From: Escherichia coli
GTDB taxonomy: Bacteria; Pseudomonadota; Gammaproteobacteria; Enterobacterales; Enterobacteriaceae
Direction: 5' to 3' (one strand)
NCBI RefSeq assembly: GCF_029227855.1
Contig: NZ_CP074357.1
Length of the DNA stretch: 64,000 nt
Made by a program: the position numbers. Numbering within the stretch: position 1 is the stretch's first letter; the number at the start of each line of letters is the position of its first letter. Of this stretch, positions 36,001-42,000 are shown in pieces.

Positions 36001-39000
36001 GCCGGGTGTGGCCGCGGCTCGCCCACCACATCGCGGAGCGCCTTGCGTTCGGGGCGGTCACCTACGCACTCTTCGCCCTCGACTCGGGTAACGAAGAGTA
36101 CCTCGCTGCGGCGAAGGCGCAGCTCGCCGCAGCGGAATGAGCGAACGTCGATATAGCCCGCTCGCGACGCTGTTCGCGGCGACCTTTCTCTTCCGGATCG
36201 GCAACGCGGTGGCGGCCCTCGCGCTTCCATGGTTCGTCCTGTCTCATACAAAGAGCGCGGCCTGGGCGGGCGCCACGGCCGCTAGCAGCGTCATCGCGAC
36301 CATCATCGGCGCGTGGGTTGGTGGTGGCCTCGTCGATCGGTTCGGGCGCGCGCCCGTCGCATTGATCTCGGGTGTGGTGGGCGGCGTGGCCATGGCGAGC
36401 ATCCCACTGCTCGATGCCGTTGGCGCCCTCTCGAACACTGGGCTGATCGCTTGCGTGGTGCTCGGTGCTGCGTTCGACGCACCCGGTATGGCCGCGCAGG
36501 ACAGTGAGCTGCCCAAACTCGGCCACGTCGCCGGGCTCTCCGTTGAGCGCGTCTCGTCACTGAAAGCGGTGATCGGGAACGTCGCGATTCTAGGTGGCCC
36601 GGCCCTTGGGGGGGCCGCAATCGGCCTGCTTGGCGCTGCGCCAACGCTCGGGCTGACGGCGTTCTGCTCCGTCCTTGCAGGTCTGCTCGGCGCGTGGGTG
36701 CTTCCCGCGCGTGCCGCTCGGACGATGACCACGACGGCGACTCTCTCCATGCGCGCCGGCGTCGCTTTTCTCTGGAGCGAACCCCTGCTGCGCCCTCTCT
36801 TTGGTATAGTGATGATCTTCGTGGGCATCGTTGGCGCCAACGGCAGCGTCATCATGCCTGCGCTGTTTGTAGATGCAGGACGCCAAGTAGCAGAGCTCGG
36901 GCTGTTCTCCTCAATGATGGGGGCTGGTGGTCTCCTTGGCATTGCCATTCATGCGTCGGTCGGCGCCCGGATATCAGCGCAGAACTGGCTGGCGGTGGCA
37001 TTTTGTGGCTCTGCGGTGGGCTCGCTTCTGCTTTCACAGTTGCCAGGCGTGCCGGTGCTGATGTTGTTGGGCGCGCTCGTGGGACTGCTGACCGGCTCAG
37101 TCTCTCCCATTCTCAACGCTGCCATCTACAACCGCACGCCGCCAGAACTTCTCGGCCGGGTACTCGGCACGGTCTCGGCGGTGATGCTGTCAGCCTCGCC
37201 CATGGTTATGCTTGCGGCCGGCGCGTTTGTCGACCTTGCTGGTCCGCTCCCTGGCCTCGTTGTATCGGCCGTGTTTGCGGGGCTCGTGGCTCTACTCTCG
37301 CTCCGTCTTCAATTTGCTACAATGGCGGCGGCAGCCACAGCCTCCGCCCCAACCCATACAGAAGGTGAACACTGATGCCCCGCCCCAAGCTCAAGTCCGA
37401 TGACGAGGTACTCGAGGCCGCCACCGTAGTGCTGAAGCGTTGCGGTCCCATAGAGTTCACGCTCAGCGGAGTAGCAAAGGAGGTGGGGCTCTCCCGCGCA
37501 GCGTTAATCCAGCGCTTCACCAACCGCGATACGCTGCTGGTGAGGATGATGGAGCGCGGCGTCGAGCAGGTGCGGCATTACCTGAATGCGATACCGATAG
37601 GCGCAGGGCCGCAAGGGCTCTGGGAATTTTTGCAGGTGCTCGTTCGGAGCATGAACACTCGCAACGACTTCTCGGTGAACTATCTCATCTCCTGGTACGA
37701 GCTCCAGGTGCCGGAGCTACGCACGCTTGCGATCCAGCGGAACCGCGCGGTGGTGGAGGGGATCCGCAAGCGACTGCCCCCAGGTGCTCCTGCGGCAGCT
37801 GAGTTGCTCCTGCACTCGGTCATCGCTGGCGCGACGATGCAGTGGGCCGTCGATCCGGATGGTGAGCTAGCTGATCATGTGCTGGCTCAGATCGCTGCCA
37901 TCCTGTGTTTAATGTTTCCCGAACACGACGATTTCCAACTCCTCCAGGCACATGCGTAAACGGAGGTGTGCAGAGTCCCTGCGGCAGGCGACGAACACGA
38001 CCGTCGTCGATTAGTACCGGTACGGTCGGTGGTATCGAAGTCTTGATCACCACTCAGGTCTACGGCTTACAAATGGTGACCATCCCGATACTTGCGTCAG
38101 AGCACCGGGCCGATTCTTTGACAGTGAATCACTCCCGTAAGGTTGTGCCGGTGTGGGTGTCCCGGGTCGAGACGATACTCCGCCAATGCGCCCAGCAAAC
38201 AACCTGGCCATCGCAGGTGGTGGGGAGCGGTGTGGCGGATGAGTTGGACAAGTTGGTGTAGCAGCACGAGCACGGCGAGATAACATCGCAGGAGTTCGAC
38301 ATGCTCAAGAGACAGCTGATTGCGAATCGCGATGCAGATTCATAACCCGATTGCGGGTTGGCTTCACTCCACCATCACCGAGCAGACTAGCACGGCGGGC
38401 TCTGTTGCAAAGATTGGCGGCAGTCAGAGGTAGGCTGTCGCTCTGCGCCGATCAGGCGGCTGCTGCGAAATGGTGGTTGAGCATGCCCATGGCCTCCGTC
38501 AGCGCCGAGGGCCCAATGCCAAAAGCTCTCTCCACAAGGCGCACCTCGCCCCTGATGCCGGGCTGCAGGCACCAGGGGCGAGCCTGTCCTTTGCGCAGGG
38601 CTCGCATGACTTCGAATCCCTTGATCGTGGCATAGGCCGTGGGGATCGATTTGAAACCGCGCACCGGCTTGATCAGTATCTTGAGCTTTCCGTGATCGGC
38701 CTCGATCACGTTATTGAGGGCACTGTTGCAAATAGTCGGTGGTGATAAACTTATCATCCCCTTTTGCTGATGGAGCTGCACATGAACCCATTCAAAGGCC
38801 GGCATTTTCAGCGTGACATCATTCTGTGGGCCGTACGCTGGTACTGCAAATACGGCATCAGTTACCGTGAGCTGCAGGAGATGCTGGCTGAACGCGGAGT
38901 GAATGTCGATCACTCCACGATTTACCGCTGGGTTCAGCGTTATGCGCCTGAAATGGAAAAACGGCTGCGCTGGTACTGGCGTAACCCTTCCGATCTTTGC

Positions 39001-42000
39001 CCGTGGCACATGGATGAAACCTACGTGAAGGTCAATGGCCGCTGGGCGTATCTGTACCGGGCCGTCGACAGCCGGGGCCGCACTGTCGATTTTTATCTCT
39101 CCTCCCGTCGTAACAGCAAAGCTGCATACCGGTTTCTGGGTAAAATCCTCAACAACGTGAAGAAGTGGCAGATCCCGCGATTCATCAACACGGATAAAGC
39201 GCCCGCCTATGGTCGCGCGCTTGCTCTGCTCAAACGCGAAGGCCGGTGCCCGTCTGACGTTGAACACCGACAGATTAAGTACCGGAACAACGTGATTGAA
39301 TGCGATCATGGCAAACTGAAACGGATAATCGGCGCCACGCTGGGATTTAAATCCATGAAGACGGCTTACGCCACCATCAAAGGTATTGAGGTGATGCGTG
39401 CACTACGCAAAGGCCAGGCCTCAGCATTTTATTATGGTGATCCCCTGGGCGAAATGCGCCTGGTAAGCAGAGTTTTTGAAATGTAAGGCCTTTGAATAAG
39501 GAGAGCATGAAAAACCTCGGGGCAGCCATCGAATGATGCCATCTACAGGGGTTAAAATAACCACCATCATTTCATAACAATACCTGCTGACTATGAAGAT
39601 CTACGTCATCAAAATAGCAGTTCATGGAGTCAGTCCGATGGTCTGGCGTCGGCTGAGAATTGCTGCCGACACGTCACTGGCCGCGCTTCACTTCATTTTC
39701 CAGATAGTGCAGGGCTGGGGGGACGACCATCTCCATCAATTTCACATTTATGGCAAAGATTACGGTATCTCCTACGAAGGAGGCATCGGTTTTGTCGATA
39801 ATCCGTTCCGGGTCGTGATTGATGATTTTGCTTTTGATGCTGGCGATCGCTTTACCTATGAATACAATTTCTTTGAGCACTGGCTTCATGACATTCGTGT
39901 TGAGGCCATTTATGAAAACTCTACGCTGAAAGCGCCGTTTTGTATAAGCGGCCATGGTATGCCCGGAGCCACAGCTGCGGATGAGTTCGATAAAACCCTG
40001 GCGTTTCTTGAAGCTATCGTTAATGCGGATGATGAAACAACGGTCGGCGAGATCCGCCCTTTTGCTGACGACCTGGATGCTGTCAGGTTCAACCGCCACA
40101 AAATCAACCGGCAACTGAGCAGGCTCGACCTTGCATCTCCGGTACTGGAGCCTGAAGTTATCTGGCTGGGCCGTCGTCGCTGACTGATGTCTATAAAGGT
40201 ATACGTTTTCAGCATGCCTCTCAGATCCCCGAAAAAATGTCTATAAACCTCCCTAAATCAGTGTTTATGGATTATTCTTTAAATCTCTATGATGTTTAAA
40301 GACCTTCCGGAGGTTTTGCGTGCAATATGCCTACATCAGGGTAAGCTCGGCCGATCAGAATACGGCCCGTCAGGAAGAGGCATTGTCAAAGGCGGGTTTT
40401 CAGCCTGATAAAATTTGTGTTGAGCATGCCAGCGCGAAGGACACAAACCGCCCGGGGTTACAGGAACTCCTGGGGCAATTACGCCCTGGTGATACGCTTC
40501 TGGTTCATTCCATCGATCGCCTTTGCCGGAATATGTCGGATATGTGCGCTGTCACCACCCGGCTTCGTGACCAGGGCGTTACCCTTATTTTTCTGAAAGA
40601 GCAGCTGACGTTCAGCGCCGGCACAAACAATCCGATGCAGGAACTGCAGCTGCACATGATGTCGGCATTCAGCCAGTTTGAACGAGCCTTACTGAAGGAA
40701 AGGCAGGCCGACGGCATCGCCGCGAAAAAAGCACGGGGTGAAAAAACAGGGCGCCCCGGCGCCGATATCAAAAAGATCCAGGAAATTGACGCACTCAGAA
40801 GCAGAGGGGTCAGGCTCAGGATCGCCTGCGACCATGCGGGCCTTGGCGTTTCCACATATTATAAGCTTCGTCACCAGATGAACAACCAGTAGCCGGGAGA
40901 TAGTCATCCACCACAGCAGGAGGCAATGATGCAACTGACGCTCCAGATAGTCATCACCGATGAATCAGGCTCCAGTCGAACGGAGGAACTGATGACAATC
41001 CAGAAATCAGGGGAGACCCGGAACGACATCGGATTATCGGTGTCAGAATCCAAGCTGTTGCTGAATACGGTCCAGCAGTCGGTGGTCCAGCTGCAGGCAG
41101 ACGAATATACTCAACACCATATCCGGTGCCCTCACTGCCTTGCTGCGCGCAGAATCAAAGGCAAACAGAAAATACGGTACCGGACGCTGTTTGGCGTTAT
41201 TCCGGTATCCGGGCTTCGGGTGTACCGGTGCCGTTGTGAAGAGAGTGATACAAAGACAGTCAGTTTGCTCAGCGACTGGGCCGGCGATTATTCTCACCCG
41301 GCACTGAAATATATTGAAACCCGCTGGGCCTCGATGATCTCCTATGAAATGACGACTCGTCTGCTGAAAGATATTCTGCCGGTGGGCCACAGCCTGAATG
41401 CCTCAACGGTGAGGAATCATTTATGCCAGGTGGCGCAGCGTCTTGACGCTGAGGCTGAAGCTCATTCAGGTTTTCTTTCCGGCTGCCCCCGCGACTGGGG
41501 GAACCTGCCCAGGCCAGGAAAACCGCTTGTGGTGGGTATAGATGGTGGTTATGTTCGCGATCGGGATGACAAAAAGCGTAATTTTGAAATTATTGCCGGG
41601 AAGTCTTTTTCCGTTGGTGCGCCTGCTGACACCCGCCGCTTCGGTTTTGTTCAGAAGGATGACTGTCATCCGGAACGCAGGCTCATGACCCACCTTTCAG
41701 CGCAGGGAATGCAGGCCAACCAGCAGATATTTTTTCTGTCCGACGGCGCGGATAATCTCAGGGACCTCCAGTTCGGTATGTACCCTGAGTCAACGCATGT
41801 GCTGGACTGGTTTCATATCACCATGAGGCTGAAGGTGCTCATGCAATATGCCCGGGGACTGCTGGTATCAGATCCAGAGGCGGGGAGTAAAGTTCTGGCA
41901 CTGCTGGAAAGCATTAAACGATATCTCTGGCATGGCAATGTTGTCGCTGCGCTGGAACATATTGATAATTGCGTTATGTATTGCGATGACCCTGAACTCA

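What the first reader, a model, noticed from the sequence alone, without database searches (positions are those of the whole stretch)
38398..39500. IS6100 remnant abutting an IS26 copy that has lost its right inverted repeat
Only the last about 320 bp of IS6100 remain, cut precisely by the IS26 left inverted repeat at 38719. That IS26 copy then diverges about 14 bp after its tnpA stop, so its right inverted repeat is absent. It therefore cannot act as a normal IS end and marks a deletion or illegitimate recombination junction next to the qnrS1 module.
Basis: seen in the sequence. Interest (0 to 1): 0.3.

Follow-up and report, generated by a model that had tools for sequence, protein, structure and literature searches.

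The report
IS26 copy cut short by ISKpn19
The IS26 copy really has lost its right end, because a complete second mobile element (ISKpn19, which carries qnrS1 beside it) sits exactly at the break; this arrangement is already common and published in resistance plasmids, so it is ordinary.

Summary
A 321-bp end of IS6100 (38398-38718) abuts the left inverted repeat of IS26 at 38719. That IS26 matches the window's intact copies only to IS26 nt 782 (39500), 14 bp after the tnp26 stop. Its last 38 bp, including the right inverted repeat, are missing.

It is the terminal inverted repeat of a complete 2,851-bp ISKpn19 (39501-42351), followed by qnrS1. The break is therefore an IS-end junction, not an anonymous deletion.

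A TTTGCAACAGTGCC motif does occur at 42370-42383. It belongs to a 32-bp IS6-like remnant that is part of the qnrS1 platform in about 1,850 plasmids, so it is not the lost IS26 end.

- The IS26/ISKpn19 junction is identical in 137 PLSDB plasmids from eight genera, so it is not an assembly artefact.
- The IS6100/IS26 junction is in 68 plasmids. Its reciprocal half, with the 8-bp duplication TTATTGAG, exists in another plasmid, which shows a true IS26 insertion.
- Published maps already write "qnrS1-ISKpn19-ΔIS26" and "IS26-mph(A)-mrx-mphR(A)-ΔIS6100".

Most likely an ISKpn19 end-mediated event removed the IS26 terminus; the route I favour is an adjacent deletion. ISKpn19's other end shows seven nested deletion endpoints. 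This is already known and of low interest.

The parts
34346..35165 (+). Complete IS26 (820 bp, standard Tnp26). It is the left boundary of the 4,373-bp IS26-mph(A)-mrx-mphR(A)-ΔIS6100 unit and is in direct orientation with the truncated IS26.
   Evidence: The 4,373-bp start-to-start spacing equals the unit length given in PMC10100706.
35235..37959 (+). Macrolide resistance genes: mph(A) 35235-36140, mrx(A) 36137-37375, mphR(A) 37375-37959.
   Evidence: ORFs. The collinear 99.99%-identical segment of pXJW9B277-HI2-N is annotated with these names.
38398..38718 (-). IS6100 remnant of 321 bp: one terminal inverted repeat (38398-38411) and the 3' end of tnpA (last 88 codons plus stop).
   Evidence: 100% identical to nt 1-321 of the complete IS6100 in L001.
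38711..38718 (.). TTATTGAG: the left copy of the 8-bp target duplication made when IS26 inserted into IS6100.
   Evidence: The reciprocal junction, IS26 right repeat + TTATTGAG + IS6100 nt 322-880, is in pRUM35_3 (CP139950.1). There IS6100 nt 314-880 directly follows the IS26 right end.
38719..39500 (+). Truncated IS26 (nt 1-782 of 820): left inverted repeat 38719-38732, intact tnp26 38782-39486, and 14 bp after the stop. The last 38 bp, including the right inverted repeat, are missing.
39501..42351 (+). Complete ISKpn19 (ISKra4 family), 2,851 bp. Terminal inverted repeats are 39501-39526 (GAGAGCATGAAAAACCTCGGGGCAGC) and 42326-42351. ORFs: 39593-40183 (PRiA4_ORF3 domain), 40320-40892 (serine resolvase domain), 40926-42320 (transposase).
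   Evidence: The ends are defined by five different left flanks and eight different right flanks of identical copies. Pfam domains. RefSeq product names on identical DNA. Length of 2,851 bp in PMC6498974.
42352..42383 (.). A 32-bp remnant of an IS6-family end that finishes in TTTGCAACAGTGCC (42370-42383). It is part of the qnrS1 platform, not the missing IS26 end.
   Evidence: 24/32 identical to the IS26 left end and 21/32 to the IS26 right end. Contiguous with the tnpR 3' end and the qnrS1-downstream DNA in 1,850 of 1,892 PLSDB hits. In pCFSA1096, 468 bp of tnpR separate it from ISKpn19.
42631..43287 (-). qnrS1 (218 aa).
   Evidence: ORF. Annotation of identical DNA.

Best explanation
The region is a stack of three insertion sequences, each cutting the previous one: ΔIS6100 | ΔIS26 | ISKpn19, then qnrS1.

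Step 1 (shown). A complete IS26 transposed into the IS6100 that ends the IS26-mph(A)-mrx-mphR(A)-IS6100 macrolide module and duplicated TTATTGAG. The other half of IS6100 was later separated from it.

Step 2 (junction shown, route inferred). The left end of ISKpn19, which already carried ΔtnpR-qnrS1 on its right side, was joined by its transposase to IS26 between nt 782 and 783. The last 38 bp of IS26 and whatever lay beyond were lost. The route I favour is an intramolecular replicative transposition, that is an ISKpn19-adjacent deletion. An unresolved inter-plasmid cointegrate whose second junction was later lost is the close alternative.

Step 3 (shown for this lineage). A further 468-bp deletion starting exactly at the right end of ISKpn19 removed the tnpR remnant and brought ISKpn19 to 32 bp from the IS6-like repeat.

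The truncated IS26 can no longer transpose as a unit. It still has its left end, an intact tnp26 and 782 bp of homology, so it still serves as a recombination partner for the other IS26 copies.
For: Anatomy:
- Searches give the coordinates, the 782/782 identity and the complete 2,851-bp ISKpn19.

Step 1:
- pRUM35_3 holds the reciprocal junction: IS26 right repeat followed by IS6100 nt 314-880.
- It overlaps the window's IS6100 nt 1-321 by exactly the 8 bp TTATTGAG.

Step 2:
- The break coincides to the base with the ISKpn19 terminus, which is defined independently by five different left flanks.
- None of the copies examined has a target duplication.
- The junction is identical in 137 plasmids of eight genera. 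The four other plasmids fetched to sample it carry IncY, IncN and IncI-gamma/K1 replicons, and all four have ΔtnpR-qnrS1 on the right.
- The reciprocal junction, ISKpn19 right end + IS26 nt 783-820, is absent from 72,556 plasmids.
- ISKpn19 encodes a serine resolvase, as cointegrate-forming replicative transposons do.
- Papers report other elements truncated at ISKpn19: ecoRIImet (PMC5027574), and Tn3000 and ISAba125 (PMC9158518).

Step 3:
- The window and pCFSA1096 are identical from 36298 to 42351 and beyond, except for the 468 bp.
- The ISKpn19 right end abuts seven different offsets of the same platform: 0, 45, 206, 287, 455, 469 and 471.

Continued role of ΔIS26:
- Three different left flanks, and in two IncI plasmids a further cut that leaves IS26 nt 332-782.
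- Loss of the 4,373-bp mph(A) unit in sibling isolates (PMC10100706).
Against: - No experiment or held paper describes how ISKra4-family elements transpose, or whether they make target duplications. 'Replicative' and 'adjacent deletion' are therefore inferences from the resolvase gene and from the junction patterns.
- No ancestor carrying a complete IS26 upstream of this ISKpn19 was identified.
- The one candidate arrangement, mphR-IS6100-padR-chrA-ISKpn19 in pEC31-2, is rare (3 records).
- The absence of the reciprocal junction is negative evidence from one plasmid collection only.
Confidence: 0.8

Rival explanations
1. Simple insertion followed by flank exchange. ISKpn19 alone transposed into an intact IS26 at nt 782/783. 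Homologous recombination with the ISKpn19 copy lying next to ΔtnpR-qnrS1 then replaced its right flank, so the IS26 tail went elsewhere.
For: It gives the same junction at the exact ISKpn19 terminus. Plasmids with two ISKpn19 copies around qnrS1 exist (PMC5329041; PMC5034289).
Against: It needs two events instead of one. The predicted intermediate or by-product, ISKpn19 right end + IS26 nt 783-820, is in none of 72,556 plasmids. The window has no second ISKpn19 and no orphan IS26 tail.
Confidence: 0.15
2. One reading: a transposase-independent deletion or illegitimate recombination that happened to remove the IS26 right end.
For: No target duplication flanks ISKpn19. The ancestor is unknown.
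Against: The breakpoint is exactly the first base of the ISKpn19 terminal repeat. That base also bounds four other, unrelated left flanks. A random break would hit that base with a probability of roughly 1 in thousands. The opposite end shows the same end-anchored behaviour seven times.
Confidence: 0.03
3. IS26 is not truncated but interrupted. ISKpn19 sits inside an otherwise complete IS26 whose right repeat is the TTTGCAACAGTGCC at 42370-42383.
For: The motif is a perfect 14/14 match in the correct inverted orientation, 32 bp after the ISKpn19 right end.
Against: - The 18 bp between ISKpn19 and the motif do not match IS26 nt 783-806. Over the whole stretch, 22/38 match, and 21/32 match the IS26 right end.
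- The same 32 bp are contiguous with a Tn3-family tnpR 3' end in about 1,850 plasmids.
- In the closest relative, 468 bp separate them from ISKpn19.
Confidence: 0.01
4. Assembly artefact: a repeat collapse or chimeric join at an IS26 copy.
For: The window holds five IS26 copies, a setting in which misassemblies do occur.
Against: The identical 60-bp junction is in 137 independently sequenced plasmids. The whole stretch 34346-50625 is collinear at 99.99% with a finished plasmid. The structure is also reported in a paper.
Confidence: 0.01

Closest known systems
qnrS1-ISKpn19-ΔIS26 segment of IncHI2-type multiresistance regions (pSG17-135-HI2 / pCFSA1096 / S. Kentucky ST198 regions; PMC10100706)
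   Same: It has the same three junctions: ΔIS6100|IS26, IS26 nt 782|ISKpn19, and ISKpn19 followed by qnrS1. It has the same 4,373-bp IS26-mph(A)-mrx-mphR(A)-ΔIS6100 unit. The DNA is 100% identical from 36298 to 42351.
   Different: The window, together with 7 PLSDB plasmids of about 245-271 kb, lacks the 468-bp tnpR remnant between ISKpn19 and the qnrS1-downstream DNA.
Core qnrS1 platform ΔISEcl2-qnrS1-ΔtnpR-ISKpn19 / Tn6292 remnant (PMC5034289, PMC5027574)
   Same: ISKpn19 lies next to the 3' side of qnrS1, and the IS6-like 32-bp remnant sits between them.
   Different: The left flank of ISKpn19 here is a truncated IS26, and ΔtnpR is fully deleted. In Tn6292 proper, ISKpn19 lies in tnpA in the opposite orientation (L003).
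IS26-mph(A)-mrx-mphR(A)-IS6100 macrolide resistance module
   Same: Same genes, order and boundaries on the mph(A) side.
   Different: IS6100 is reduced to 321 bp by an IS26 insertion. A second, independent IS26 cut 2 bp away (319 bp left) exists in 23 other plasmids.
IS-mediated adjacent deletions (classical for IS1, IS26 and Tn3-family intramolecular replicative transposition; established knowledge)
   Same: The IS end is retained intact. Nested endpoints in the neighbouring DNA are all anchored on the IS terminus, and no target duplication is present.
   Different: This has not been shown experimentally for ISKpn19 or any ISKra4-family element. Here it is inferred from comparative junctions only.

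Membership tests
IS26 (IS6 family) | 14-bp terminal inverted repeat at the left end (GGCACTGTTGCAAA) | tested here: met
   Exact match at 38719-38732.
IS26 (IS6 family) | Intact 234-aa DDE transposase Tnp26 | tested here: met
   38782-39486 encodes 234 aa with a DDE_Tnp_IS240 hit at E=2e-48. It is identical to the standard copies in the window, with G at residue 184.
IS26 (IS6 family) | 14-bp terminal inverted repeat at the right end and a full length of 820 bp | tested here: not met
   Identity stops at nt 782 and 38 bp are missing. No repeat lies within 300 bp. This is therefore a truncated IS26, not a functional IS.
IS26 (IS6 family) | 8-bp target site duplication | tested here: met
   It cannot be seen in the window itself. 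The left flank TTATTGAG recurs after the IS26 right repeat, followed by the rest of IS6100, in pRUM35_3. This is a historical signature of the original insertion.
IS6100 (IS6 family) | 880-bp element with GGCTCTGTTGCAAA termini and a 264-aa transposase | tested here: not met
   Only 321 bp are present, 100% identical to one end of a complete copy. They hold one terminus and the last 88 codons, so this is a remnant only.
ISKpn19 (ISKra4 family) | Length of 2,851 bp with imperfect terminal inverted repeats | tested here: met
   39501-42351 is 2,851 bp, and the two 26-bp ends match at 22 of 26 positions. The published length is 2,851 bp (PMC6498974).
ISKpn19 (ISKra4 family) | Encodes the ISKpn19 transposase and two passenger ORFs | tested here: met
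   All three ORFs are intact. RefSeq names the products of the 100%-identical DNA as ISKra4-like element ISKpn19 family transposase WP_001493761.1, recombinase family protein and pRiA4b ORF-3 family protein.
ISKpn19 (ISKra4 family) | Identity to the ISfinder reference sequence | not testable with these tools
   ISfinder is not available here. The assignment rests on RefSeq product names and on papers.
IS26 pseudo-compound transposon / translocatable unit | A DNA segment bounded by two directly oriented IS26 copies | tested here: inconclusive
   IS26 at 34346 and ΔIS26 at 38719 are direct repeats enclosing mph(A)-mrx-mphR(A)-ΔIS6100. The second copy lacks its right end. Loss of exactly this 4,373-bp unit is reported (PMC10100706), but the mechanism was not tested.

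The most novel reading that the evidence does not exclude
The truncated IS26 may have acquired a surrogate right end. Its left repeat at 38719 and the perfect 14-bp IS26-type repeat at 42370-42383 lie in the correct inverted orientation. Together they bracket 3,665 bp that encode an intact Tnp26 and a whole ISKpn19. Tnp26 might therefore be able to move 'IS26+ISKpn19' as one enlarged element. Nothing here supports that it does. In a spread sample of 1,892 plasmid hits, no class of hits ended at the outer edge of that repeat, and its flank TTATAAAT does not match the left flank TTATTGAG. The reading has not been excluded experimentally.
Probability: 0.03. Interest if true: 0.4.

Novelty: already known. 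Interest (0 to 1): 0.1.

Why it matters
The main value is for correct annotation. The 'divergence' in IS26 is the boundary of ISKpn19, and the qnrS1 module in this family of IncHI2-type resistance regions is anchored on its left by a dead-ended IS26.

The practical consequence is modest. The IS26 copy cannot transpose, but it still offers 782 bp of homology and a working left end. It therefore still helps to shuffle the mph(A) and qnrS1 modules between plasmids.

The only mildly new point concerns ISKpn19 rather than the finding. Comparative junctions suggest that it repeatedly deletes DNA next to both of its ends, behaviour that has not been characterised for the ISKra4 family.

Tried and rejected
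1. IS26 interrupted rather than truncated. The orphan TTTGCAACAGTGCC at 42370 looked at first like the missing right repeat. I rejected this because the bases before it are not IS26, and because the same 32 bp follow tnpR in about 1,850 plasmids.

2. Reciprocal junction ISKpn19 right end + IS26 nt 783-820. A chimeric 78-nt probe gave only joined, non-contiguous hits in megablast and nothing in blastn at E<=1e-13.

3. pEC31-2 (mphR-IS6100-padR-chrA-ISKpn19-ΔtnpR-qnrS1) as the ancestor of the deletion. Its chrA/ISKpn19 junction is in only 3 records, so it gives no support.

4. First round of 200-bp junction probes. The tool joins nearby pieces, so the counts were not usable. I repeated the searches with 60-bp probes at E<=1e-14.

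5. Source of the 32-bp IS6-like remnant. An exact 29-nt scan of the GTDB representative genomes found nothing.

6. Literature on the ISKra4/ISKpn19 transposition mechanism or target duplications. Nothing mechanistic was found. The Partridge 2018 review is not held.

7. Pfam on the ISKpn19 transposase gave no hit.
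Full report
**1. The observation**

Reading 38100-39900 and scanning for the IS6-family termini shows one IS6100-type repeat at 38398 and an IS26 left repeat at 38719. Chance expectation for such a 14-mer is 0.01 matches per window.

The window holds four complete 820-bp IS26 copies (31276, 34346, 56675, 61250). The copy at 38719 is 782/782 identical to those at 34346 and 61250, and it stops matching after IS26 nt 782, which is window 39500. Its tnp26 ORF (38782-39486) is intact and carries the DDE_Tnp_IS240 domain. The break therefore lies 14 bp after the stop codon, and the last 38 bp, including the right repeat, are gone.

Segment 38398-38718 is 321/321 identical to one end of a complete 880-bp IS6100. 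It encodes only the last 88 residues of the IS6100 transposase. No right repeat lies within 300 bp of 39500; the best match is 9/14.

**2. What replaces the IS26 end**

From 39501 the sequence is GAGAGCATGAAAAACCTCGGGGCAGC. Its imperfect inverted partner ends at 42351. The 2,851 bp between these points carry three intact ORFs:
- a PRiA4_ORF3-domain protein,
- a serine resolvase-domain protein,
- a 464-aa protein that RefSeq names 'ISKra4-like element ISKpn19 family transposase' on 100%-identical DNA.

The published length of ISKpn19 is 2,851 bp (PMC6498974). The termini are independently defined. Identical copies in other plasmids have five different left flanks and eight different right flanks that all change at exactly these bases. 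IS26 is therefore cut at the first base of a complete ISKpn19. The position is uncertain by one base, because IS26 nt 782 is G and four of the five left flanks also end in G.

**3. The TTTGCAACAGTGCC at 42370-42383**

One search found one orphan IS26-type right repeat 32 bp beyond ISKpn19. This raised the possibility that IS26 is merely interrupted. It is not.

- The 32 bp match the IS26 right end at only 21/32 positions. They match the IS26 left end slightly better, at 24/32.
- In the closest relative, pCFSA1096, they are separated from ISKpn19 by 468 bp of the 3' end of a Tn3-family resolvase gene.
- The tnpR-3'/32-bp/qnrS1-downstream stretch is contiguous in 1,850 of 1,892 PLSDB hits, with or without any IS26 nearby.

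It is an old remnant of some IS6-family element that belongs to the qnrS1 platform. An exact scan of the GTDB representative genomes did not find its source.

**4. How common the junctions are**

I used 60-bp probes centred on each junction, with E<=1e-14 so that half-matches are excluded, against 72,556 PLSDB plasmids.

| Junction | Records |
|---|---|
| IS26 nt 782 / ISKpn19 | 137 (Escherichia 63, Salmonella 58, plus Klebsiella, Shigella, Enterobacter, Serratia, Vibrio, Leclercia) |
| ΔIS6100 / IS26 | 68 exact, plus 23 with a different cut 2 bp away that leaves 319 bp of IS6100 |
| ISKpn19 / 32-bp remnant, no tnpR remnant (window type) | 7 exact, plus 1 variant |

The 7 exact records of the window type are plasmids of about 245-271 kb, six from E. 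coli and one from Salmonella. The one I fetched, pXJW9B277-HI2-N, is typed IncHI2A/IncN.

Window 34346-50625 is collinear at 99.99% with pXJW9B277-HI2-N. The two outer parts of the window are inverted relative to that plasmid, and the switches fall at or near IS26 copies.

[quoted passage not shown] The figure of 4,373 bp is exactly the spacing 34346 to 38719 in the window. An assembly artefact is excluded, and the structure is already known.

**5. Origin of the IS6100/IS26 junction**

I built the predicted reciprocal junction: IS26 right end + TTATTGAG + the next bases of IS6100. It is present in pRUM35_3 (CP139950.1). There, IS6100 nt 314-880 directly follows an IS26 right repeat and leads into a class 1 integron 3' segment.

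The window has IS6100 nt 1-321 before the IS26 left repeat. The 8-bp overlap (nt 314-321, TTATTGAG) is the target duplication of a single, normal IS26 insertion into IS6100. The two halves now lie in different plasmids. This IS26 was therefore once complete.

**6. Origin of the IS26/ISKpn19 junction**

Shown:
- The break is at the exact ISKpn19 terminus.
- No ISKpn19 copy examined has a target duplication.
- In the four junction-bearing plasmids I fetched to sample it, which carry IncY, IncN and IncI-gamma/K1 replicons, the right flank of ISKpn19 is ΔtnpR-qnrS1. Their IS26 left flanks differ, and in the two IncI plasmids IS26 is cut further, to nt 332-782.
- The reciprocal junction, ISKpn19 right end + IS26 nt 783-820, is absent from PLSDB.
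- The window has no second ISKpn19 and no orphan IS26 tail.

Also shown is that the other end of ISKpn19 behaves as a deletion-generating end. It abuts the same 500-bp platform at seven different offsets: 0, 45, 206, 287, 455, 469 and 471. For the window lineage the ancestor-like form is at hand. pCFSA1096 is identical on both sides and differs only by the 468 bp. Re-insertion cannot explain this difference, because the left junction is shared.

Inferred: ISKpn19 carries a resolvase, as cointegrate-forming replicative transposons do. Papers note other elements truncated at ISKpn19. From this I infer that the ISKpn19 left end attacked IS26 in a transposase-made event. The route I favour is intramolecular (adjacent deletion). 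Alternatively it was an unresolved cointegrate whose far junction was later lost. A simple insertion followed by recombination between two ISKpn19 copies is possible but needs more steps and an unseen intermediate. A transposase-independent break is very unlikely, given the base-exact coincidence with the IS terminus.

**7. Function today**

The truncated IS26 cannot transpose as an IS. It still encodes Tnp26, has its left end and shares 782 bp with the other copies. The diversity of its left neighbours and the reported loss of the 4,373-bp mph(A) unit between it and the upstream IS26 show that it still takes part in IS26-type or homologous rearrangements. Which of the two was not tested here.

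**8. Comparison and verdict**

The closest known structures are:
- the qnrS1-ISKpn19-ΔIS26 segment of IncHI2-type resistance regions,
- the core ΔISEcl2-qnrS1-ΔtnpR-ISKpn19 platform,
- the IS26-mph(A)-mrx-mphR(A)-IS6100 module.

The window differs from the common form only by the extra 468-bp deletion, which it shares with seven database plasmids.

The finding is real, correctly described, incompletely interpreted and already known. Interest is low. The least ordinary by-product is comparative evidence that ISKpn19 makes nested end-anchored deletions.

The most novel reading not excluded is that the IS26 left repeat and the IS6-like repeat at 42383 form a usable pair for Tnp26. No evidence supports it.

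Noticed in passing
window 42351/42352; loci L001, L002, L005, L006, L007, L010, L011: The right end of ISKpn19 abuts seven different offsets (0, 45, 206, 287, 455, 469, 471 bp) of the same tnpR-remnant/qnrS1 platform in different plasmids. This nested, end-anchored deletion series suggests that ISKpn19 actively deletes adjacent DNA. No held paper describes this for the ISKra4 family.
   Followed up: partly
window 42352-42383: A 32-bp remnant of an unidentified IS6-family end (14/14 identical to the IS26 terminal repeat, 24/32 to the IS26 left end) lies downstream of qnrS1. It is fixed in about 1,850 PLSDB plasmids. No source element was found in the GTDB representative genomes.
   Followed up: partly
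window 31276-32095 and 56675-57494: Two of the four complete IS26 copies differ from the others at nt 459, 613 and 614 and encode Tnp26 with N instead of G at residue 184. The copies at 34346 and 61250 and the truncated copy are the standard type.
   Followed up: partly
L012 (NZ_CP049840.1), compared with window 38717-38719: A second, independent IS26|IS6100 junction lies 2 bp from the window's (IS6100 remnant of 319 bp instead of 321 bp). It is present in 23 PLSDB plasmids, which may point to a favoured IS26 target in IS6100.
   Followed up: partly
window 43753-44698 and 55732-56677: A perfect 946-bp inverted repeat with 11 kb between the arms. The second arm ends at an IS26 left repeat. I did not identify it.
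   Followed up: no
window 32096-32395 / 62423-62722 and 32556-32679 / 62886-63009: Direct repeats of 300 bp (100% identical) and 124 bp (98%), about 30.3 kb apart. The first starts immediately after the IS26 at 31276 and the second 354 bp after the IS26 at 61250. They may be duplicated flanking DNA from IS26-mediated events.
   Followed up: no
window 21684-64000 versus L008 (pXJW9B277-HI2-N): The window matches this IncHI2A/IncN plasmid at >=99.96% in three blocks. The two outer blocks are inverted, and the switches fall at or near IS26 copies (window 34346-35173 and about 50620). This is consistent with IS26-mediated inversions.
   Followed up: partly
L013 and L016 (IncI-gamma/K1 plasmids): The same IS26 nt 782|ISKpn19 junction occurs with IS26 further reduced to nt 332-782. 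The module therefore moved on even after tnp26 was destroyed.
   Followed up: partly
window 39495-39500 and L005 744-749: Two of the five independent left flanks of ISKpn19 end in the same hexamer, AATAAG. This is either coincidence or a target preference; the sample is too small to tell.
   Followed up: no
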